Shown here: piece after piece, positions 982 to 39,011 of the stretch
Layout: each line of letters opens with the position of its first letter
Numbering within the stretch: the stretch's first letter is position 1
Source: a virus
Taxonomy: Duplodnaviria > Caudoviricetes
IMG/VR virus record: IMGVR_UViG_3300025569_000023
Coordinates: 1 to 39,011 of that record
Length of the DNA stretch: 39,011 nt
Strand: one strand, 5' to 3'
Program-made: the position numbers and the translations under genes
Notes under the pieces: generated by a model
What the model saw: the letters and a program-made list of their open reading frames with translations, nothing else
What the model was told of the DNA's origin: nothing
The model's database searches: none

Positions 982-1413
982 ATGAAAAAGTCTGAAAATC
1001 AAGCCATTGTTGACAATGCTGTCGAGTCCACTAATTCTGTTTCTCGTGGCAAATCGTTTGTCGCTTTCGTAGAAAATGACGACAAAACCTTCACGTACGA
1101 AGGTCGCTATGTATCGTTGTCAGATTTTTCGAAGAAGCATAACGACGAAGGTGTACTGACGAACAACCTGCGCCCTGTGTTGTCAGGCAAAGTTCGCATC
1201 ATCAAAAAGTACACGTTGTTCTACGAGAAATATAGTGAACTTGACCATCTGATCGGCTATGACGAATGGCTGGCTGAAGATGACACTCGTCAACATGGCG
1301 ACTTTCCGGACGAGATTTACTTTAGTAAAGGGTATATTCGCGGTCTGAGCACTCGTGTACCTATGCAACAAGTCATAGAGCAACTTGAGAAATTAGGCTG
1401 GTCGAAGAAGTAA
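982..1413 (+). CDS. NUMOD1-like DNA-binding protein, paralogue of 4420..5034
   Basis: KSFVAF..EGRYVSL..PVLSGKVRII..LFY..GYDEWLAEDDTRQHGDFPDEI aligns with the C-terminal half of 4420..5034. Has its own promoter and terminator. Confidence 0.6.
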   Translation: MKKSENQAIVDNAVESTNSVSRGKSFVAFVENDDKTFTYEGRYVSLSDFSKKHNDEGVLTNNLRPVLSGKVRIIKKYTLFYEKYSELDHLIGYDEWLAEDDTRQHGDFPDEIYFSKGYIRGLSTRVPMQQVIEQLEKLGWSKK

Positions 1414-4419: not shown

Positions 4420-5034
4420 ATGGCACAACAACCTGAAAACACAGTACGGATAAAGAAATATCCGCGCTATTTCCTCAGCCTGGATGGCAAAGTTTACGAT
4501 TCTGAAGATGACTGGAAACAACTCAAGTCGAGTAAACATGCAGAAACCGGGCTCTTCATGTATACGTTTGTCAAAGGCAATTCTGTTCATGCATGGTTCG
4601 TCACCGACACAACCATGGAAGAACATTTCCCTGGCGGTAAAATGCCTGCATCTGGCGGCTCCGGTCCCAAAACAAAGCCGTTCGTGGTATTCGATATCAC
4701 CGGCAAGTTCATTGGACGTTTCGCCACCCAACAATCCCTGGTTGATACCATCGATGTTATCGCCAAAACAAACGGTATCCCACCCGTTCTCAAAGGTCGT
4801 GTTCGCACCATCGCCGGCCATCACTTGTTCTATGCAGGTGATTGGAGTGACGGAGAAGCCGACTACCAAGGTTATGATTCTTGGCTTGCTCAAGATAAAA
4901 CCAGGAAAGAAGGCGACTTCCCGCATGAAATCCATGCCCAATTCGGATGGGTCTTTGGACGCACTCGCCGGGTACCGGTTGAAGAAGCATTCACCGCCAT
5001 CAAGGCTGCTCAAAAACAACCGGCTGAAGCCTAA
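4420..5034 (+). CDS. NUMOD4-like + NUMOD1-like DNA-binding protein without an HNH/GIY-YIG nuclease domain
   Basis: N-terminal IKKYPRYFLSLDGKVY..QLK is NUMOD4-like; KPFVVFDITGKFIGRF..VLKGRVRTIAGHHLFY is NUMOD1-like; no HNH motif lies between them. Confidence 0.65.
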   Translation: MAQQPENTVRIKKYPRYFLSLDGKVYDSEDDWKQLKSSKHAETGLFMYTFVKGNSVHAWFVTDTTMEEHFPGGKMPASGGSGPKTKPFVVFDITGKFIGRFATQQSLVDTIDVIAKTNGIPPVLKGRVRTIAGHHLFYAGDWSDGEADYQGYDSWLAQDKTRKEGDFPHEIHAQFGWVFGRTRRVPVEEAFTAIKAAQKQPAEA

Positions 5035-5046
5035 TTTTTCAACACC

Positions 5047-5085
5047 TAGTCATGACTATCTTTATGGTAGTCATGACTTCTTTTT
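5047..5085 (+). terminator. Rho-independent terminator
   Basis: AGTCATGACTATC..GGTAGTCATGACT followed by TCTTTTT. Confidence 0.8.
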
Positions 5086-5103
5086 CCCAACATATTAAAA
5101 ATA

Positions 5104-17528: not shown

Positions 17529-18110
17529 ATGAAGGTCCAGGACAAACTTAACATTACAATGGCATGGCTATCGTTAATTGCCCCGTGGACGAATTTAGTC
17601 GTACCAGTGGGATTAGTAGCTATGCTTGGATATTTTCACTTTGACCATATTGTATCAGCTATGCTGGGTCCATATGGTTGGTATGCTGCTACAATAATCG
17701 GTGTCCTATATTGGATTTTATTCAGTGGAGCTAGGATCGCTTTAATTATTGCATCAGCCCGGGATTTTAGCAACAGGGAATTTATCGAAGGTACTTTAGG
17801 TTTATTTGCATCATTGGCAGTATTAATATTTGATCTTTGGTTCCTTGGTAAAATCACAGCCATGGCTTTTCCAAATGATAATGGTACAATGGTTGTTGTA
17901 TTGAGGTTTACTTCAGTATTAGCTACCATTATGGAAATTCGATTAGTATTGTTATTGGTTAATATGACGCCCCGCCAAAGGTTACGTAAATCTGGTACCA
18001 TGGATTATGATCCTGCCGATGTTCAAATGCTACCTGGAAATGTACCATCTACAAACGGAACTAGCACTAAAAAAGGTAAAACAATAGCTGATTTATTCGG
18101 GGCAAGGTAG
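17529..18110 (+). CDS. multi-pass membrane protein (4-5 TM)
   Basis: Several hydrophobic segments and a soluble basic C-tail. Confidence 0.8.
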   Translation: MKVQDKLNITMAWLSLIAPWTNLVVPVGLVAMLGYFHFDHIVSAMLGPYGWYAATIIGVLYWILFSGARIALIIASARDFSNREFIEGTLGLFASLAVLIFDLWFLGKITAMAFPNDNGTMVVVLRFTSVLATIMEIRLVLLLVNMTPRQRLRKSGTMDYDPADVQMLPGNVPSTNGTSTKKGKTIADLFGAR

Positions 18111-18789: not shown

Positions 18790-19086
18790 TTAAAACTTTC
18801 TTTTTAAAGAAATTATATCAGCTTCTATAGTATCTATTCTTGCACGTATTCTATTACGAGCATCATTATCTAAATTATTTATTGTATTTAATTTATCAGA
18901 TAGCGTTTCTAATTTATTTTCAATAGTTTCTATTTGTTTTTTTAATAATTTTAAATGTATAATTATAGCATTTATTTTTTGCCAAATTATACCTATTAAT
19001 AATGATAATGGTATAATCAATATTATTATTGCTATTGTTTTTATAGCAGCTACAGATTCGTTCATAGGTAATATAAAATTAATCAC
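18790..19086 (-). CDS. single-TM coiled-coil protein (holin or i-spanin candidate)
   Basis: IAIIILIIPLSLLIGIIW TM followed by a heptad-like tail, at the end of the late operon. Confidence 0.45.
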   Translation of the reverse strand: MINFILPMNESVAAIKTIAIIILIIPLSLLIGIIWQKINAIIIHLKLLKKQIETIENKLETLSDKLNTINNLDNDARNRIRARIDTIEADIISLKRKF

Positions 19087-19672
19087 AGAATCGTCGTTTT
19101 TTAATAATTAATTTTTTAGTAGGTAATACACTACCGCCGCCATAAAAATTAACTTCTCTCCAATAACGTTTATGTGGTATTGAAAATGTATGATAATATA
19201 CACTAGAATTATGATCTATGATAACATAAATATTATCACTATCATCTGTATAATATCCAAAATCAATTTTTTCGTTTTGTTTAACTTCAACAATTGGCCA
19301 AGATTCATCTTTTCTTTTTTCCCAATACCATTGTTCACCATTTCGATTATAATATGGTGAAATTTCAATTTTATTTTTATAATGTCTTACGCCTAAGGCG
19401 ACTAAATTATTATTGTTACTTAAAACATTAAAAGTTTCTCCACATAATTTTAACCATTGTGATTGGTTACTTGATAATATATAATCCCAACCTTCTAATA
19501 ATTCTATTTGCCAATGGCCAGATGGATAATCGGAATTACCACTATTTATAATAACCGGCGTGCAATTAAATGTACCTGGTTTAATAGTATAAATTCTTTC
19601 ACTATCTGGACATTCAAATAGTAATTTACATGAAGTAACCAATACACAAATGGTTAAAATTATATATCGCAT
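19079..19672 (-). CDS. predicted lipoprotein, beta-rich
   Basis: MRYIILTICVLVTS|C lipobox. Confidence 0.7.
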   Translation of the reverse strand: MRYIILTICVLVTSCKLLFECPDSERIYTIKPGTFNCTPVIINSGNSDYPSGHWQIELLEGWDYILSSNQSQWLKLCGETFNVLSNNNNLVALGVRHYKNKIEISPYYNRNGEQWYWEKRKDESWPIVEVKQNEKIDFGYYTDDSDNIYVIIDHNSSVYYHTFSIPHKRYWREVNFYGGGSVLPTKKLIIKKRRFCD

Positions 19673-19675
19673 TAT

Positions 19676-20020
19676 TTAATCAGATTTTGTAGCTAATAAC
19701 TTTGGCATTAATAAATAAACGTCAGACCAAGGATTAGCTGCTAAAACATTGATTATAAATTTCACAGCTGAAAAACTAATCTTTAAATTTACATTTGTGG
19801 AATCTGTATATGCAATAGTCTGAGCACTGATCGCTGAATTTAATTGATCGACTAGTGGCGCATTTTTATCTTTAGCTGATAACAATTTAGAAGAAGCTAT
19901 ATTCAATGCACCATGAATATATGCAGCTTCGTCATGCGTCAATACTAATGATACTATAGTTGTATCATTTTGTGTAAAAATCTTAAAAGGGATAATCAGA
20001 AATAAAATAACTAATCGCAT
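19676..20020 (-). CDS. predicted secreted protein
   Basis: MRLVILFLIIPFKIFT|Q signal peptide with Gln+1. Confidence 0.65.
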   Translation of the reverse strand: MRLVILFLIIPFKIFTQNDTTIVSLVLTHDEAAYIHGALNIASSKLLSAKDKNAPLVDQLNSAISAQTIAYTDSTNVNLKISFSAVKFIINVLAANPWSDVYLLMPKLLATKSD

Positions 20021-20031
20021 AAATTATTTAA

Positions 20032-20823
20032 TTAAGGTGTAAAAATCAATCTTTGAAACTCTTCTCTAGCATAAGACCATTCAATTACCATAGGAACCGT
20101 CCCAGATACCCATCGAATTTCTTTGCCCACAAAATAATGATTATTGTTTGATGGAGAAGAAATTAAAATAGACGGCATATTTGGTATTAACTGGCGCAAC
20201 TCAATCATCCTTGGGCCATAGATTCGAACAGTCCCATCATATCCTCCAGGAACTGGGATCGTTGTACCATTTGGGCCGGTTTGTACTTCCACTATATTTC
20301 CGAGTTCGTCAATGTAGAAATATTTTGTACTATACACCCCATTATAAAATTTAAGTTTCCAATATCCTACAAATAATCCACCCCATCGATTATGAGTTTG
20401 TTCAAAATAATTTTCATTAGTTAATTCTATCAAAATAGGATTGAGTAATGCCAATCGAGCAAAGGTACTATCTTGTTGAAATCTATTATATTGAGCTTCC
20501 GCAAAAATGGATGTAATGTTTGCGATTGAATTTACCAAAGCCTCATTTACCATTTGGGATTCCAAATAATTGGCGGTATCACGTGAAATATTATTAATCG
20601 TTGTATCTAATGCAACAACTCTAGTTTTGGTCGATAATTTTAATTTTGCTCGAACATAATAATCCGAAGAATCTGGTATTAATCCGATTGAATCAATACC
20701 TATAGCCTGAACATCCTGGATATTATAACCTTTGGAACCTCCAATTGAAATAATAAATGTTTGAGCCTGTCCAATAGTGACTAACAGAACGAATATAAAG
20801 AAAATCGAATATTTCATAACCAT
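20032..20823 (-). CDS. predicted secreted protein
   Basis: MKYSIFFIFVLLVTIGQA|Q signal peptide; start at 20823 or 20817. Confidence 0.75.
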   Translation of the reverse strand: MVMKYSIFFIFVLLVTIGQAQTFIISIGGSKGYNIQDVQAIGIDSIGLIPDSSDYYVRAKLKLSTKTRVVALDTTINNISRDTANYLESQMVNEALVNSIANITSIFAEAQYNRFQQDSTFARLALLNPILIELTNENYFEQTHNRWGGLFVGYWKLKFYNGVYSTKYFYIDELGNIVEVQTGPNGTTIPVPGGYDGTVRIYGPRMIELRQLIPNMPSILISSPSNNNHYFVGKEIRWVSGTVPMVIEWSYAREEFQRLIFTP

Positions 20824-20839
20824 TTGTTTAATGAAAATG

Positions 20840-21241
20840 TTAATGAATATAATCATTTCGTTTAGTCCGAATCCATGTTTCAGAAATACCTATTTGATCT
20901 ACCATTATATATTTCCCATTTCTTCCATCGTGAATTGTGTAGTCTTTAATCTTTCCGGAATGTGTCTGAGTGTTCTTAATATAGAACCAAACAGTCAAAG
21001 TATCTTCCATAAGATTAAATGATCCGGAACAAACAACATTGGGTAATACCCCTGGACCACGATTCTCATTCACATACCATGCCGAGTAAATATGACCATA
21101 CCCAGCCCCATTGTGAGCAAATGAATAATACAAATTATCTCCCACCTGATATTCATAATCCTCCCACATCAAAATTTCATCAGGCGCTGAAATTTGCATT
21201 CCACACGCTGTCAAAAGAAATATCAAAAAAAGATGTTTCAT
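20840..21241 (-). CDS. predicted lipoprotein
   Basis: MKHLFLIFLLTA|CG lipobox. Confidence 0.75.
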   Translation of the reverse strand: MKHLFLIFLLTACGMQISAPDEILMWEDYEYQVGDNLYYSFAHNGAGYGHIYSAWYVNENRGPGVLPNVVCSGSFNLMEDTLTVWFYIKNTQTHSGKIKDYTIHDGRNGKYIMVDQIGISETWIRTKRNDYIH

Positions 21242-24200
21242 TAATAACTATTTGTAATTACCCATTGATATGTACCAGATGCTGTTTGGGACACTTTTAA
21301 TGTAATCGTTTCATTATTGGTAACTGTCCGAGTTGTGGCTGAAGTTCCTTGTTCCCAAAGTTCATTTGTTCCTGCAACGACTTCTGTAATATATGTCCCA
21401 TCACTATCTATCCCAGAAACGGTTATATCTACACCAGCTAATAAGGCCGTCGGCGAAGGTAAAGTCAATGTGCTGTTACTAGATGCTGCACTGACTTTCA
21501 GGAATACTGTATAATGTCCATATGTCTGTAATGTAGCAGCACTCGGTGCTAAATCTGCTCCTTCTTCGGCATAATTTGCAGCGGATAGATTCGCATTTGC
21601 AGGAACAACGTCACCGGCAGAAGTAAGTGCCAAAAGATTCGCCGGAGTTCCTGTTCCGAGGCTTTCAAATCGGATTTCTCCGACCACATGAAAATCTTTT
21701 GCCGGTGATCCAGTTCCAAACCCAACTCGCCCTTTTCCGGATGCTACTATTATTGCATAATTATTCGTCGCCTCTGTGGCTGAAAAAGATGCTGCAATGT
21801 TTGTAGTTTTTGCTCCCTGAGCATAAGCTTGAAGGCCATATCCTGTCCCTGTTGTACCAGTATGCCAAAATTCACCCCCGAATCCATTATCGGATGCGGT
21901 TGTGCCAGCCACACCACGTGCCCCCGTTCCAGTTCCTGAACCATATACCCCAACATTTATCGTCGATCCATTTAACCCATACCCCTGAACTCCATAATTT
22001 ATAGAACCTGTTCCCGTATGTCCATTTGAAATATACAACGCAACTGTTTTTTGTGAAGATGTAGCATTTGCCCCACTCAAATTTATGTGTACTAATTTTT
22101 GACTATTACCAGATGCACCAGTACTAGTTGATGTAACATACATCCCATTTCCTCCAGCCAGGGCATCATATGTATGGATCTCCGAATATGCACCCCCAGT
22201 TATCGTGGTACTCCCGGTCAAAGATCCACCCCAGGTAACAGCACCAGCGACTTCGGTCAATGCATTTGAAAAAGTATATGTTGTAGCCGTTGAACTAAGT
22301 GTACCGGCTGTAAAACTCAACCCTGTACCAATGGTTATTTTGGCTACATCTCCATCGCCGTCAGCTCCAAGAATTTCAGTGGGGGTATCAGTAATTCTAT
22401 CTCGTATTCGCAATTCACCATCAATATCAACCGTTCGTGCAGGGGTAATAGCTGCAGTTCCAATACCTATTGATCCACGAAAATAAGATTTTAATTGTGA
22501 TGAATTATATAACGAATAATCGTTTCCAGATGGGGACGCCGCATCAGATAGATTAGAAAGATATAAGACATACCGGTTGGTTACCGTGGCTCCCGAAAGA
22601 ACGCTTGCATCCGCGTACACTCCAAACAAATTGGTAGTAACCGTGGCTGATGCGGCCAATGCCCGAACAGCATATATCTGAGTAACATTTCCTGTACCAT
22701 ATCCTTCCGAAGTCACTTGAATACCTTCAAGGCTAGCGACAGTATGGGTGTTGGTCGGATCGACATAAATATAAACCCAGTTTCCCACTTGTTCAGTCAA
22801 AGCCCCCATATTCACTGAGGGTTTGAAAATCAAAGATGTCGCCAACCCATACCAATTACTGTTTTCTGTCACCGTATCGTTCAAGTATAACCAAGTCGTT
22901 GGATCGGGGGCTGTATTAATTCCGACTTTACTCCCATCGTCGTAAAGTATTCCGTATGTGAGGGTGTTGGCATCGGCCCACGTCGCAACCCTATCTGTGA
23001 GTCCTGATCCAAATGGAACGGTTGCATTATTTACAGATAACGTGCCAGTCGTTAAACTCAACCCAGTGCCTGTTATAACATCACCAAGTATATTTCCAGA
23101 TGTAGACCCCGTTAATTTTGTTGGCGTCGCTGTGAGATCAGATATACTCGCATCACCTATTACAGTTAATGTTTCGGTTGCTGTACTACCTGCAATAACG
23201 AGCTTTGCCGTAGGTTCTTGAAATGATCCGTTTCCGTTTTTGTCAATTGCAAAAAAAGTATAAGCTGTGGTCGTAGTATTCCTAACCCCCTGAAATACAG
23301 CCAAATCCGAGTATTGCAATGCATTTTGTGCGCCAGTTGTTCTTCTACGAACACCTTTGAAAAGAAAAGCTGGCCCAGACCCACTTATTTCAAAATCCTC
23401 ATGCATACTTACTGACATTATCAATCCTTGTGAAATTGGCCCCACTCCAGATTGAGGGTATGGTGATGCACTCAAGGTAGGATAACCAGCTGTATTGCTA
23501 CCGCCCAGAGAAAACGCAAAATTACCCATTGCAGATGATGCAAATCCCGCCGTAGTATTGCCAAAGAAAAATTTCGGGTTTTTAAAACTACTTACCGTGG
23601 AAGCCGAAACAAAACCTCTGCTAGCCTGCACTGAATAATCACCCTGGTCAGTAGTGGCATTGACATATAACTCTGTTCCGTTATACGAAAATCCAGATGT
23701 TTGCTGTAAAGCTCCATTTGCATCTGCATAAATAACCCTCTCATTCGTAAAAGCTGCACCAGATACGGATGTATAAGGAATAAAGTATTCATTTGTGCCA
23801 TTTTGTAACTTAAACCAGTTACCAATCGTTGCGAAAAATATATTTCCGGCTATATTAGCAGGTGATGACGCTTGAGTTCTCAATCTTGCCCATCCATCCA
23901 CATCAACTGTCGCGGATGGAGTGTTCCCGGAGCCAAACAAGAATTTTCCAGTGTACTGCCAGTACGCTATGTGGTTGTTGTTATTATCATCAATATATAG
24001 ATTGTGACCTGCCAAACCATTAGTATTACCCCACTTCCAGGTCATATTTTGTGTTCCAGCGGTTCCTGTCGTTTGGGTAAGTATTTTCACACTATTTTGG
24101 TTGTCTACTCCTGGTCTGATAATTAAAGCCGCATACGCATTACTTGTAGAGGCATTAGTCGGACCTTCGATCAATACACCTTCATTCGACGTAGTACCGT

Positions 24201-24558
24201 AGAAATTGTACTTTGCTCCACTGTTGGGAGTATTTGTGCCAAATCCTATTTTCGTACCATTATCGAATATTTGAGAATCACCCAGGGTATTACCGTTCGG
24301 CGTCCATTTTGGAACATAATTAAGAGTCCCAGATCCTGTTGGGAAACTACCACCGCCAGTTGATACAATTACTCCATCAACATATAACGTATCATGTGAC
24401 TTGCGTAAAAATGACGACCATTCGCCTTTAAAATTCACTTTCGTAATTGCAAAATAACCACTATCAACTGACGATTCGATTTGAGTCCATCGAATCGGTG
24501 CTTGAGCATATCCCATTACAACCGTAAAAATCAACCCGCATATAATCTTTATTCTCAT
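21241..24558 (-). CDS. tail-fibre/adhesin-like protein with an N-terminal signal peptide
   Basis: G/T/S-rich; repeats KIGFGTNTP, KVGINTAP, SIGIGT, RVGFGTGSP and GTGLSxTxGTLS twice; N-terminus MRIKIICGLIFTVVMGYA|Q. Confidence 0.75.
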   Translation of the reverse strand: MRIKIICGLIFTVVMGYAQAPIRWTQIESSVDSGYFAITKVNFKGEWSSFLRKSHDTLYVDGVIVSTGGGSFPTGSGTLNYVPKWTPNGNTLGDSQIFDNGTKIGFGTNTPNSGAKYNFYGTTSNEGVLIEGPTNASTSNAYAALIIRPGVDNQNSVKILTQTTGTAGTQNMTWKWGNTNGLAGHNLYIDDNNNNHIAYWQYTGKFLFGSGNTPSATVDVDGWARLRTQASSPANIAGNIFFATIGNWFKLQNGTNEYFIPYTSVSGAAFTNERVIYADANGALQQTSGFSYNGTELYVNATTDQGDYSVQASRGFVSASTVSSFKNPKFFFGNTTAGFASSAMGNFAFSLGGSNTAGYPTLSASPYPQSGVGPISQGLIMSVSMHEDFEISGSGPAFLFKGVRRRTTGAQNALQYSDLAVFQGVRNTTTTAYTFFAIDKNGNGSFQEPTAKLVIAGSTATETLTVIGDASISDLTATPTKLTGSTSGNILGDVITGTGLSLTTGTLSVNNATVPFGSGLTDRVATWADANTLTYGILYDDGSKVGINTAPDPTTWLYLNDTVTENSNWYGLATSLIFKPSVNMGALTEQVGNWVYIYVDPTNTHTVASLEGIQVTSEGYGTGNVTQIYAVRALAASATVTTNLFGVYADASVLSGATVTNRYVLYLSNLSDAASPSGNDYSLYNSSQLKSYFRGSIGIGTAAITPARTVDIDGELRIRDRITDTPTEILGADGDGDVAKITIGTGLSFTAGTLSSTATTYTFSNALTEVAGAVTWGGSLTGSTTITGGAYSEIHTYDALAGGNGMYVTSTSTGASGNSQKLVHINLSGANATSSQKTVALYISNGHTGTGSINYGVQGYGLNGSTINVGVYGSGTGTGARGVAGTTASDNGFGGEFWHTGTTGTGYGLQAYAQGAKTTNIAASFSATEATNNYAIIVASGKGRVGFGTGSPAKDFHVVGEIRFESLGTGTPANLLALTSAGDVVPANANLSAANYAEEGADLAPSAATLQTYGHYTVFLKVSAASSNSTLTLPSPTALLAGVDITVSGIDSDGTYITEVVAGTNELWEQGTSATTRTVTNNETITLKVSQTASGTYQWVITNSY

Positions 24559-27500
24559 GGGTAGAAAAATTTTACTGTTATTTCTTCATTATCATAAGGA
24601 TAAGACCCCGTATAGATAATATCTGATCCTGAAACTGTCCAATAACTTGGGGACATTTCAACCCCATTACGAAGAACATCGATTTTCGAAGTGTCTCCTG
24701 GCAACACACCACCATTTACAGTAACAGTTACAGTTGTTCCTGTTACAGTTGGAAATATTTGTTTATAACGTATAGGTGGATCTGCTGTATCAGCTGCTTG
24801 TTGAATTAATCCACCAGAAGCAGCCGGTAATAAAAGAACTGTAAAACCTTCTAAATCAACAGTTCCTGTATAATCTGCTAAAACTTCAACACTAACTTCA
24901 TCGCCATTAGCTAAAAAGTCTAACCATATAGATACTACCTGATTTGATGCAGCAGATTGTACTCTTTTAGAATAAATAACAGAACCGATATTTCTTACTC
25001 CATTTTTAGCTATTGCAAATGCTACTGACGAATTATTAGAAGATACTCCAAAAGAAATAGTTACAATAGCCCAAAACAATTGAGTAGCTGTTCCATCATA
25101 AACAGCAGTACCTGATCCTACACTTGCTGAAAATCTAACACTATAAACAAATAATTCTGTTATATTTACTGTAGCCCAAACACCGTTTGTTACATTTATA
25201 GAAATAGGTATAGATGTTTGATCTACATAAGCATAGATTCCAGCAAATTGACCATTGCCGTCACCTATATCGTCACGGATAATATAAGAACCAGAAGGTA
25301 TACTAAAATCGGTTGTTGCAGATTGAACATGTAAAACAGTATCTCCTATGGCTGCATCTTGTGTTATTATAAAAATTTGTTCTAAACCAGTTTGTGTAAT
25401 AACACGTATAATATCTCCTTCATTATAAACACCTGCTTGTGTAATTTCAACTACTTGTATTTCTGTTATAATAGTACCACTATCTATAAAATCAACAGTA
25501 GTTGTAGGAGATAAAGCAGGAATGATAGTTGGTTCTGGAAATTTAACAGGTGTTGTTCGACCATCATCAGATGCTGGAAAATTAGGAGTACGCCCAGGAA
25601 TCGGTATAGTAGTACCAATTTTTAACGGTGGTGGAATTGTAGGAATTGTATTGACTGCTACATAATGCCATTCACCGGTGATTGAATCATCTCTTGCGAT
25701 AAATCTTCCAGAATGAAATATATAAGCTCGGGTACTTCTCAATAATTTTTCATAAGGATGATATATTTGATTATATTTACCAATCATCCTCGGAGTTGAC
25801 TTAATTTGACCTTTTATAATCTCATTAGCTAATAATTGAGAAATCTTAACAAAACTCCCAGTATTTCCTACTCTCCATTGATTAGTATCAACCCAAGTCA
25901 ATCCACTATCATTCGATACTTGAATTTTACCCAAAACAGCAGGGGTTGGTCCATCACCATGATAAGTATCTATAGATAATATTTTGGTATTCTTATCTAT
26001 TTGATTTTCTGCTGCATAAGTTAAAATATCAAAATTACCACCTGGAATACCATCATAAAATACTTCAAAATATGGTTCTTGTATATCAAAATCTGGAAAA
26101 TTAGTAACTGAATTAACCCATACTCCTGTAGTTGTATTGAATCTCCATATATCTGAAATACCAATGGAAATAGTCATATCACCATCAGCAGGGATTAAAG
26201 GATTAGTAAATTCTGGTAATGCAAACCTATTGTAACCAAGATTAGAAGTAACAACTTTCACAGCTACATAAAAATAATTAGTTATACCTGTTTGCCATTT
26301 TTCTTCTATTCTTTGTTCAAATGTTCCGCCAGCGCCATCACTAATAACGCGACTACCACCACTAAAAGAATAACCGGAACCACCATCTGCAATTGATATT
26401 CTGATTCTAAAATTAACAAAAATTAAATCATAAGGGACCATATTATCAATTCTCCACTGAGTCATATCTACCCACAACTTTCCTGACATTCTAAAACTTG
26501 CTACACCACTGTTACTATTTACATCTTCTAATATTACACCACCATCTGCTTCTTTGATAGTATCTTCCCTTAATAAATTAGCTCCTTCAAAATAATTATA
26601 TTTAACTTCCACTTTAGCTAAAGGTGGATAATATCGTTCTGTGAAACCGACTACTTTATCTAGTTCTGTAAAAGCTGTTTTTGTAGGTATTGACCCAAGA
26701 GAAGAAGTTACCTTAGTAAAAGTAACATCATATGTATGTACAATCCAGGTTGTATCAATATATTCATTTTGTTGCAAAATCCAATATATACCATTAGTGA
26801 ATATAAAAGTACAACCTAATTCTGTACATAATTTAAATAAAACATCATAATAAGATGAATCTTTTGGTTGCCCTTTTGAATCAAGTTCAATAAAAGTATT
26901 TATACGAATACGTAATACCTCTAATGGATTAGTTGTAACAGCATAAGTTAAGTTATCTGGCCACCAATTAAATACATATTTCAATAAATTAATAGTCGGG
27001 GAAATATCAGAAAACATAGACAAGGTATTTAACCTTGTTATAATATCTTTAAATAAATCGAAATAAGTTACCCAACCGGTGGTATAAACATCAAAAGGAA
27101 TATTCTTTAATGTTCCAATAATATCAGTTGCTGTTAAGGTAATTATAAACGGATACCGATCATCTTCTTTTTCAATCTGATCTGTTAAAAAATTACCTAA
27201 CCAGTATAAATTAGAATTTAAATAAACAACAAGACGAAATTGGGATTCTGGAGCATCGACTAAATCAACTAAAAAACTTTGTAATGCTGTATCCGTATCA
27301 TCTACGAACATATCTATTGATCCAGTTGTTGCTATAATCCCGCAAAATCGTTCATCATTCTCTGGAAAATATTCAATAGTAAAACCATTATTAGCACAAC
27401 GAAACTCCGCTGTAGACCCCGCCCATTCGGTATCGTGTATTTCCACATCATACACGTTATTATTTATACTAGTTAAACTAGCGTATAATCTAAGCGGCAA
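24555..27500 (-). CDS. large tail (baseplate/hub) protein
   Basis: 981 aa directly after the tape measure; Pro-rich linker and beta-rich C-terminal domains; TTG start. Confidence 0.75.
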   Translation of the reverse strand: MPLRLYASLTSINNNVYDVEIHDTEWAGSTAEFRCANNGFTIEYFPENDERFCGIIATTGSIDMFVDDTDTALQSFLVDLVDAPESQFRLVVYLNSNLYWLGNFLTDQIEKEDDRYPFIITLTATDIIGTLKNIPFDVYTTGWVTYFDLFKDIITRLNTLSMFSDISPTINLLKYVFNWWPDNLTYAVTTNPLEVLRIRINTFIELDSKGQPKDSSYYDVLFKLCTELGCTFIFTNGIYWILQQNEYIDTTWIVHTYDVTFTKVTSSLGSIPTKTAFTELDKVVGFTERYYPPLAKVEVKYNYFEGANLLREDTIKEADGGVILEDVNSNSGVASFRMSGKLWVDMTQWRIDNMVPYDLIFVNFRIRISIADGGSGYSFSGGSRVISDGAGGTFEQRIEEKWQTGITNYFYVAVKVVTSNLGYNRFALPEFTNPLIPADGDMTISIGISDIWRFNTTTGVWVNSVTNFPDFDIQEPYFEVFYDGIPGGNFDILTYAAENQIDKNTKILSIDTYHGDGPTPAVLGKIQVSNDSGLTWVDTNQWRVGNTGSFVKISQLLANEIIKGQIKSTPRMIGKYNQIYHPYEKLLRSTRAYIFHSGRFIARDDSITGEWHYVAVNTIPTIPPPLKIGTTIPIPGRTPNFPASDDGRTTPVKFPEPTIIPALSPTTTVDFIDSGTIITEIQVVEITQAGVYNEGDIIRVITQTGLEQIFIITQDAAIGDTVLHVQSATTDFSIPSGSYIIRDDIGDGNGQFAGIYAYVDQTSIPISINVTNGVWATVNITELFVYSVRFSASVGSGTAVYDGTATQLFWAIVTISFGVSSNNSSVAFAIAKNGVRNIGSVIYSKRVQSAASNQVVSIWLDFLANGDEVSVEVLADYTGTVDLEGFTVLLLPAASGGLIQQAADTADPPIRYKQIFPTVTGTTVTVTVNGGVLPGDTSKIDVLRNGVEMSPSYWTVSGSDIIYTGSYPYDNEEITVKFFYP

Positions 27501-38920: not shown

Positions 38921-39011
38921 GCGATTTCTAGCTATTTTTATATTTAGAAAGGGTATGATCAATTAGATAGTACGAGCTGATCAAAATTGGCACTTGAAAT
39001 CTCTCCCCCTA

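What the first reader, a model, noticed from the sequence alone, without database searches (positions are those of the whole stretch)
19079..24558. Five consecutive exported proteins, including a signal-peptide-bearing tail fibre, where fibre and lysis genes normally sit
Seen: the 1105-aa fibre-like protein starts MRIKIICGLIFTVVMGYA|Q. It is followed by a lipoprotein (LLTA|C), two secreted proteins (IGQA|Q, KIFT|Q) and another lipoprotein (LVTS|C), all tightly coupled in the late operon. Established: virion fibres normally assemble in the cytoplasm and lack signal peptides, and Gln+1 is the Bacteroidota SPase I signature (pyroglutamate Q-rule). Inference: the fibre and its partners are exported. 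They may be added to virions in the periplasm or at lysis, displayed on the infected cell as an adhesin, or form a non-canonical envelope-breaching or receptor-masking apparatus. By eye, 20.0-24.5 kb is more GC-rich than its flanks, suggesting a swapped-in module.
Basis: partly seen in the sequence, partly recalled or inferred. Interest (0 to 1): 0.85.

Follow-up and report, generated by a model that had tools for sequence, protein, structure and literature searches.

The report
Phage tail fibre with export signal
An uncultured long-tailed phage, likely of a Bacteroidota bacterium, carries predicted host export signals on its only tail-fibre-like protein and four neighbours, while its tail-tip protein ends in a domain related to known fibre-docking domains, so the fibre likely matures outside the cytoplasm and would join the particle only when the cell bursts.

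Summary
Real, and shared by many Bacteroidota phages. Five coupled genes after the tail hub of an HK97-type siphophage start with export leaders (my rule; SignalP unavailable). 13 of 26 other hub-relative groups have a leader-bearing fibre there, against 4 leader calls in 364 upstream genes. Export is supported independently: the periplasmic O-glycosylation motif is enriched in leader-bearing relatives (60 vs 13 expected in the family of the 274-aa protein; 1 vs 4 in its leaderless members, which all follow fibre-fused hubs). Virion use is supported indirectly: the hub ends in a domain homologous to the XD2 docking domain of CBA120 TSP4 (E 9e-6), no leaderless fibre gene exists, and seven leader-bearing proteins of two cultured Cellulophaga phages are annotated as MS/MS virion proteins. 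Best reading (0.62): periplasmic maturation, docking at lysis. No binding or localisation was measured. The raised GC covers only the fibre and resembles the capsid gene, so it does not show a swapped module. No endolysin was found. This scan noted the same phenomenon before on other DNA (41 notes, at least 39 genomes); I found no paper describing it. The XD link and the leader switch are added here.

The parts
24555..27500 (-). Tail hub / tip protein, 981 aa, no leader; core about residues 1-745 shared with 818 library proteins
   Evidence: Follows the tape measure gene; 818 hits at E<=0.001; weak match to Cellulophaga phage phi18:1 gp59, annotated as MS/MS virion protein
24558..24779 (-). 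C-terminal ~72-aa domain of the hub, homologous to XD2 of CBA120 TSP4 (a trimer-docking domain type); inferred fibre docking site
   Evidence: 33-sequence profile vs PDB: 7REJ/7RFO residues 189-248, E 8.6e-6; only such domain in the window; XD function from PMC8825819
21241..24558 (-). 1105-aa Thr/Gly-rich fibre-like protein with predicted Sec/SPase I leader (residues 1-18, Gln+1) and five GIGT..P-type repeats
   Evidence: repeats shared with 17 proteins, mostly leader-bearing and with leader-bearing fibres of related phages, best E 1e-18; Atlas nearest clusters PF26696 PTL_trimer, score 0.91
20840..21241 (-). 133-aa predicted lipoprotein (lipobox Cys13); no homologue found; function open
20032..20817 (-). 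261-aa (ORF 274 aa from 20856) exported fibre partner, member of a ~200-aa family that has a leader when the fibre has one; inferred chaperone or adaptor
   Evidence: Leader-free family profile scores 19.5 bits, 0 of 2000 shuffles as high; 4 glycosylation motifs vs 0.5 expected
19676..20020 (-). 114-aa protein with a weaker predicted Gln+1 leader; no homologue found
   Evidence: 2 motifs vs 0.6 expected, not significant
19079..19672 (-). 197-aa predicted lipoprotein (Cys15) of a beta-rich family found between fibre and lysis genes, with both lipoprotein and leaderless members
   Evidence: Family profile 24.1 bits, 0 of 2000 shuffles as high; 12 loci, 7 distinct; no motif enrichment
18790..19086 (-). 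Holin-like small membrane protein (one hydrophobic segment plus coiled coil); assignment by position and shape only
   Evidence: no family match above cut-off

Best explanation
The 1105-aa protein is likely this phage's virion tail fibre, predicted to be exported by the host Sec system into the periplasm, where it would be trimmed to a Gln-capped form and trimerise with help from the co-exported ~260-aa partner, and it would dock on the XD-type domain at the end of the cytoplasmic tail hub once the inner membrane fails at lysis. Shown: gene order, leaders by sequence rule, their conservation, the XD homology, the absence of any other fibre gene. Inferred: actual export and cleavage, trimer formation, the partner's chaperone role, docking on the hub, timing. 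The two lipoproteins and the 114-aa protein are probably envelope-side accessories (receptor masking or lysis support); their roles are open.
For: (1) 13 of 26 other informative hub groups have a leader-bearing large protein among the first four genes after the hub. (2) In a related fibre family found through those loci, 78 of 78 scorable viral loci keep a hydrophobic segment before the conserved mature N-terminus, 77 have Gln+1, none has a Met near the cut; that N-terminus occurs in 512 viral stretches but 10 stretches in 185,579 species genomes, so it is phage gear, not a host adhesin family. (3) D-S/T-hydrophobic motif, used by Bacteroidota only on non-cytoplasmic proteins (PMC12871550): observed/expected 2.03 in 16 leader-bearing large proteins and 3.42 in 12 small ones, against 0.63, 0.85 and 0.94 in leaderless large, hub and upstream proteins; reversed motif 1.00. 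(4) Partner family: 21 leader forms 60 motifs vs 13.1, 5 leaderless forms 1 vs 4.4; all 5 leaderless forms directly follow 1208-1590-aa hubs with a fused fibre. (5) L062 has a leader-bearing fibre inside a strongly supported clade of fused-fibre hubs, and its residues 55-95 are 44-66% identical to the start of their fused fibre. (6) Hub C-terminus matches XD2, E 8.6e-6; found in 6 of 13 or 5 of 13 leader groups and 0 of 13 others; the same domain is appended to tail terminator and head-closure proteins in other loci. (7) phi10:1 gp091-094 and phi18:3 gp085-087 have Gln+1 leaders and are annotated 'structural, MS/MS'. (8) 0 of 22 phage leader-bearing fibres start with either N-terminal domain of the cell-type fibres.
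Against: No experiment and no host. The window's own fibre is not motif-enriched (2 vs 4.3), nor are the seven Cellulophaga proteins (8 vs about 20); 12 leader-bearing cell-type homologues are also depleted (6 vs 43), so this does not argue against export but gives no support for glycosylation of this fibre. The XD association is not phylogenetically independent (leader state changes only about 4 times) and 7-8 of 13 leader groups lack a detectable XD on the hub; 46 of 73 loci of the related fibre family have none within 2.5 kb upstream. XD domains also occur inside exported fibres. In L043 the exported fibre and partner lie between tail terminator and tail tube genes while the hub has its own fused fibre. 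The MS/MS evidence is a GenBank note; I could not read the source paper, so co-purification is not excluded. The window's fibre has a Met at position 15 that could give a leaderless form. phi18:1, a hub relative, uses leaderless fibres.
Confidence: 0.62

Rival explanations
1. The exported fibre and partners are displayed on the infected or lysogenic cell as an adhesin, like Bdellovibrio MAT fibres; the hub's own C-terminal extension serves as receptor binder.
For: Best database hits are leader-bearing proteins of cell type sharing the repeat; leader-bearing trimeric fibres on cells are known (PMC10769870); the module moves between virion types and positions; the hub has about 160 extra residues before the XD domain.
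Against: No cell-type N-terminal domain on 22 phage fibres; the gene overlaps the hub stop, with no Bacteroidota -7 promoter motif on that strand between 26037 and 23524; no integrase among the 52 window proteins scanned; MS/MS annotation of leader-bearing proteins in virions; XD domain left without a client.
Confidence: 0.15
2. The exported proteins are non-virion lysis-time factors: soluble decoys or lipoproteins that mask or destroy receptors, or an unconventional lysis set replacing the missing endolysin.
For: No endolysin domain in the window, while the same scan finds one in L012; the module abuts holin-like genes in many loci; two lipoproteins cannot easily be virion parts. Receptor-masking lipoproteins such as T5 Llp are recalled, not from a call.
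Against: The 197-aa family sits beside a normal endolysin in L012 and in phage Pan5, so it is not an endolysin substitute there; the fibre has no enzyme domain. This reading fits the lipoproteins better than the fibre and can hold together with the best explanation.
Confidence: 0.13
3. The leader is bypassed: an internal start (Met15) or failed export yields a cytoplasmic fibre that assembles normally, and the leader is a relic of capture from a host gene.
For: Met15 lies four residues before the predicted cut; the window's fibre is not motif-enriched.
Against: 0 of 78 related fibres have a Met within 8 residues of the cut while all keep the hydrophobic segment; motif enrichment and the leader switch in the partner family indicate selection in the periplasm.
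Confidence: 0.1

Closest known systems
Bdellovibrio MAT (mosaic adhesive trimer) fibres, PMC10769870
   Same: About 1000-aa mosaic, phage-fibre-like proteins with a signal peptide and capping-loop repeats of similar look
   Different: Cell-encoded and cell-displayed, with a conserved ~130-aa domain after the signal peptide; here phage-encoded in the late operon behind an XD-bearing hub; no S74 domain found; no sequence match to solved MAT structures
XD2/XD3 docking domains of CBA120 TSP4, G7C gp66 and T4 gp10, PMC8825819
   Same: Hub C-terminal domain is homologous to TSP4 XD2 (E 8.6e-6)
   Different: Known XD clients are made in the cytoplasm; here the only candidate client carries an export leader
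Cellulophaga phages phi10:1 (gp091-094) and phi18:3 (gp085-087), GenBank KC821618, KC821620
   Same: Consecutive Gln+1 leader proteins at the fibre position, annotated as MS/MS structural; phi10:1 has the same siphophage gene order
   Different: Little sequence similarity to this window (hub E 0.027, none for the five); no XD match; leaders are not mentioned in the record notes
Q-rule proteins of Porphyromonas gingivalis Nixviridae phages, PMC10367356
   Same: Phage genes with Bacteroidota Q-rule leaders
   Different: Five genes of unknown function, read by the authors as outer-membrane modifiers; not linked to fibres in the passages I saw
Bacteroidota Sec/SPase I Q-rule (PMC5837995) and general O-glycosylation (PMC12871550)
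   Same: Gln+1 after the leader; D-S/T-hydrophobic motif enriched in leader-bearing relatives
   Different: Described for host proteins; the word 'phage' occurs 0 times in both texts

Membership tests
Bacteroidota Sec/SPase I Q-rule substrate | Basic N-region, hydrophobic core, small residue at -1, Gln at +1 | tested here: met
   Own rule calls fibre, 274-aa and 114-aa proteins; background 4 of 364; not SignalP
Bacteroidota Sec/SPase I Q-rule substrate | Cleavage and pyroglutamate formation in vivo | not testable with these tools
   Needs N-terminal proteomics
Bacteroidota O-glycoprotein | D-S/T-hydrophobic motif above chance | tested here: inconclusive
   Met for the 274-aa protein (4 vs 0.5) and for relatives; not for the window's fibre (2 vs 4.3) or the 197-aa protein
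Phage tail fibre | Position after tape measure and hub, fibre-type repeats, homology to hub-fused fibres | tested here: met
   direct match of the window's fibre to a fused hub extension is short (49 aa, E 1e-5)
Phage tail fibre | Trimeric beta-fibre fold | tested here: inconclusive
   Single-sequence model pLDDT 33; Atlas nearest clusters PTL_trimer 0.91; no PDB sequence match
Phage tail fibre | Present on the virion and needed for adsorption | not testable with these tools
   No isolate; indirect only
XD2/XD3 docking domain | Sequence homology to a solved XD domain | tested here: met
   E 8.6e-6 over residues 189-248 of 7REJ/7RFO with a 33-sequence profile; E 0.05 with 12 sequences
XD2/XD3 docking domain | Binds a trimeric partner | not testable with these tools
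   Needs binding assay or cryo-EM
MAT superfamily | Conserved ~130-aa domain after the signal peptide | not tested
   MAT N-terminal domains were not fetched; two other cell-type N-terminal domains were tested and are absent
MAT superfamily | C-terminal S74 chaperone (13 of 21 MATs) | tested here: not met
   No Pfam match for the fibre; not required for all MATs
Secreted or SAR endolysin / spanin | Peptidoglycan hydrolase or spanin family domain | tested here: not met
   No Pfam or PHROG match for any of the five

The most novel reading that the evidence does not exclude
Many tailed phages of Bacteroidota build their host-recognition fibres as secretory proteins: exported by Sec, Gln-capped, often O-glycosylated by the host, folded with a co-exported partner, and clipped onto XD docking domains of finished particles during lysis. 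This would be a two-compartment assembly route for a non-enveloped phage, with virions wearing host glycans, and it has switched to and from the cytoplasmic, hub-fused form more than once.
Probability: 0.55. Interest if true: 0.9.

Novelty: new variant of a known kind. Interest (0 to 1): 0.72.

Why it matters
Tailed phages are taken to assemble wholly in the cytoplasm. If fibres mature in the periplasm, infectivity would depend on host Sec, signal peptidase, glutaminyl cyclase and, in many relatives, the O-glycosylation pathway; host range could carry a chemical imprint of the last host; and lysis would be an assembly step. It is testable now in cultured phi10:1 and phi18:3. It also warns annotators that leader-bearing genes in Bacteroidota phages need not be morons.

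Tried and rejected
Structure models of the fibre (pLDDT 33) and the 197-aa protein (pLDDT 32) were useless, so no fold search was run. The complex job (three fibre N-termini plus hub C-terminal domain) gave no answer. No close relatives of the hub or terminase in viral contigs by single-sequence search; no fibre match in cultured phages or PDB. The 274-aa protein did not match its family with the first 12-sequence alignment (hhalign 0.3%; 13 of 200 shuffles as high); it did once more members were found. Family profiles of the 197-aa and 274-aa proteins found nothing convincing in PDB; a polysaccharide-lyase-like look of the 197-aa family is recalled and untested. Protein searches for the 274- and 197-aa proteins returned only near-identical copies. 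Atlas could not read them. Sigma-70 promoter and terminator scans were at chance level. No RNA holder listed. GC as proof of a swapped module: rejected. Holmfeldt et al. 2013, the presumed source of the MS/MS notes (recalled), was not held; its supplements may bear on purity and peptide coverage.
Full report
Context. The window is a whole virus record of 39,011 bases, classed linear, CheckV 58%. The minus strand carries an HK97-type siphophage late operon: HNH, small and large terminase, portal, protease, capsid, neck, tail tube, tape measure, then a 981-aa hub and the five genes in question. The plus strand carries replication genes. Public holders are wetland metagenomes; contigs from four runs show no listed differences over 18-28 kb, and contigs of three of four runs stop exactly at 39011 (three of those four runs may be the source), so the right end may be a physical end. 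The host is inferred to be Bacteroidota from the Gln+1 leaders and from related fibre loci in three Saprospiraceae contigs.

Observation. Confirmed. SignalP was not available; I wrote a rule and measured it: 4 calls in 364 upstream genes of related loci, one false (a tail tube protein), three apparently real. GC is raised only over the fibre (0.426; 20.0-21.0 kb 0.327; genome 0.326). Synonymous GC3 of the fibre is 0.28, like capsid 0.35 and the 9457-10278 gene 0.29, unlike hub 0.12 and terminase 0.12; high expression explains this as well as foreign origin.

How common. The hub has 818 relatives. A 12-sequence sub-alignment (not containing the window's hub) found 397 viral loci, of which the best 80 were returned; five more came from metagenomes (one is this window). 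The 85 loci form 44 groups at 60% identity; 17 end too early, leaving 27 with the window's own. 13 of the other 26 have a leader-bearing large protein among the first four genes after the hub (one, L040, is a 70-aa cut fragment). The sample is biased to one hub subfamily. On a quick tree of 27 hubs the state needs 4 changes, at least 2 forced by strongly supported branches, so the counts are not independent events.

Is export real? Bacteroidota O-glycosylate D-S/T-hydrophobic motifs only on non-cytoplasmic proteins (PMC12871550, passages). One locus per group, window excluded: 130 motifs vs 64 expected in 16 leader-bearing large proteins (14 of 16 above expectation), 26 vs 7.6 in 12 small ones, but 23 vs 36 in 13 leaderless large ones, 97 vs 114 in 26 hubs, 276 vs 295 in 369 upstream proteins; the reversed motif is flat. 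In the window the 274-aa protein has 4 vs 0.5, but the fibre has 2 vs 4.3 and all five together 9 vs 6.1 (not significant). Twelve of the fibre's 17 database homologues have leaders by eye and are depleted (6 vs 43; the other five left out), so lack of enrichment is usual for this repeat type. I call these homologues cell-type from their names, contig lengths and N-terminal domains; their gene context was not read.

A natural switch. The 274-aa protein belongs to a ~200-aa family (58 loci, 26 distinct); a leader-free profile scores it 19.5 bits against a best of 7.5 in 2000 shuffles, after a first smaller alignment had failed. 21 distinct members have leaders and 60 motifs vs 13.1; 5 lack leaders, have 1 vs 4.4, and all 5 directly follow long hubs with a fused fibre. 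Of the 21, 18 follow a protein with a visible leader; for 3 the upstream start was not resolved. Partner and fibre thus share a compartment, as a chaperone or adaptor would. L062 has a separate leader-bearing fibre within the fused-hub clade (support 100), with a 41-residue stretch 44-66% identical to the start of the fused fibres.

Virion or cell surface? (a) A profile of 33 copies of the hub's last ~72 residues matches CBA120 TSP4 residues 189-248, its XD2 domain, at E 8.6e-6 in the PDB. XD2/XD3 domains bind trimeric tailspikes or baseplate trimers in CBA120, G7C and T4 (PMC8825819, abstract and passages). It is the only such domain in the window. It is on 6 of 13 or 5 of 13 leader-group hubs and 0 of 13 others; it is also appended to tail terminator and head-closure proteins, stands alone before a fibre (L146), and occurs inside some exported fibres. 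(b) No leaderless fibre gene is present. (c) A conserved mature N-terminus of a related fibre family (not the window's own N-terminus) matched 512 viral stretches and 10 in 185,579 species genomes (patterns differ by one residue). In the 80 viral loci returned, 78 were scorable: all have a hydrophobic segment before it, 77 Gln+1, none a nearby Met; my stricter rule called only 39 of 80 because many have a long N-region. It occurs in at least three virion architectures. (d) 0 of 22 leader-bearing phage fibres begin with either cell-type N-terminal domain. (e) Following a lead from earlier scan notes, I fetched phi10:1 and phi18:3: of 25 MS/MS-annotated proteins I translated from three Cellulophaga phages, 7 have Gln+1 leaders, all at the fibre position. 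The source paper could not be read. Against: phi18:1 uses leaderless fibres; L043 places the exported module away from a hub that has its own fibre; 46 of 73 loci in (c) show no XD within 2.5 kb upstream; Met15 in the window's fibre could give a leaderless form.

The other three genes. The 197-aa lipoprotein belongs to a family of 7 distinct members, 2 with lipoboxes and 5 without, lying between fibre and lysis genes and beside a normal endolysin in L012 and phage Pan5. The 133- and 114-aa proteins have no homologue in the loci held. No endolysin was found among 35 proteins scanned with Pfam and 52 with PHROGs; the two PHROG 'endolysin' hits fall on the tape measure C-terminus. The genome may be incomplete.

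Mechanism. Most likely the fibre and partner cross the inner membrane by Sec, are cut by SPase I and Gln-capped (Q-rule, PMC5837995, abstract and passages), fold in the periplasm, and meet the particles when holin action opens the membrane; the fibre trimer then binds the hub's XD domain. All steps after the sequence features are inferred. Confidence 0.62; cell-surface adhesin 0.15; lysis-time soluble or membrane factors 0.13; bypassed leader 0.10.

Literature. Searches (listings and abstract starts only) showed no paper on exported phage fibres; the library lacks most subscription papers. Read as passages: PMC10769870 (MAT fibres), PMC10367356 (Q-rule genes of unknown function in P. gingivalis phages), PMC5776456 and PMC5723332 (leaders noted in Bacteroidota phages, not on fibres in the passages seen). 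The scan itself has 41 notes on this phenomenon in at least 39 genomes; the eight shown are mostly crAss-like or short-tailed phages, and none holds all the words of an XD-docking query.

Verdict. A real, widespread, apparently unpublished variant of the tail-fibre module. Interest 0.72.

Noticed in passing
window 1-39011: No endolysin or integrase found by Pfam/PHROG scans; contigs of three runs end at 39011, so the genome may be more complete than CheckV's 58%.
   Followed up: partly
L052:2115-2537, L060:1929-2357, L013:11571-11789: ~140-aa Gln+1 leader proteins rich in glycosylation motifs, placed right after the capsid gene or tail tube gene; candidate exported head or tail decoration proteins.
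   Followed up: no
L023:1700-2734, L026:350-1387, L010:1024-1623, L146:7711-7950: XD-type domains appended in three copies to tail terminator proteins, once to a head-closure protein, or as a stand-alone 79-aa gene: possible neck-level docking sites.
   Followed up: partly
L097, L122, L137, L147, L178 (fibre starts): Fibres with a 40-60-residue basic N-region before an ordinary hydrophobic core and Gln+1; could delay export or act as a holin-like anchor.
   Followed up: no
P0002-P0018: Leader-bearing cell-type fibre proteins are strongly depleted of the O-glycosylation motif (6 vs 43 in 12 proteins), suggesting avoidance in the trimer repeats.
   Followed up: partly
L181:8030-12074 (ON968456, Pseudanabaena phage Pan5 gp18, gp19): A phage filed as cyanophage has Gln+1 leader proteins (gp18 with 14 motifs) and the 197-aa family; its host may be a Bacteroidota companion.
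   Followed up: no
window 17529-18110 (+): 193-aa protein with about four hydrophobic segments at the end of the early operon, converging on the late operon; no family match.
   Followed up: no
window 982-1413 and 4420-5034 (+): Two proteins share a similar C-terminal ~45-residue segment; the second overlaps another 204-codon ORF (4484-5098) in a GC-richer patch.
   Followed up: no
window 24263-24306: A 44-nt stretch coding the fibre repeat is matched (5 differences) by an unrelated contig in three runs: the repeat is present in other DNA of the same samples.
   Followed up: no
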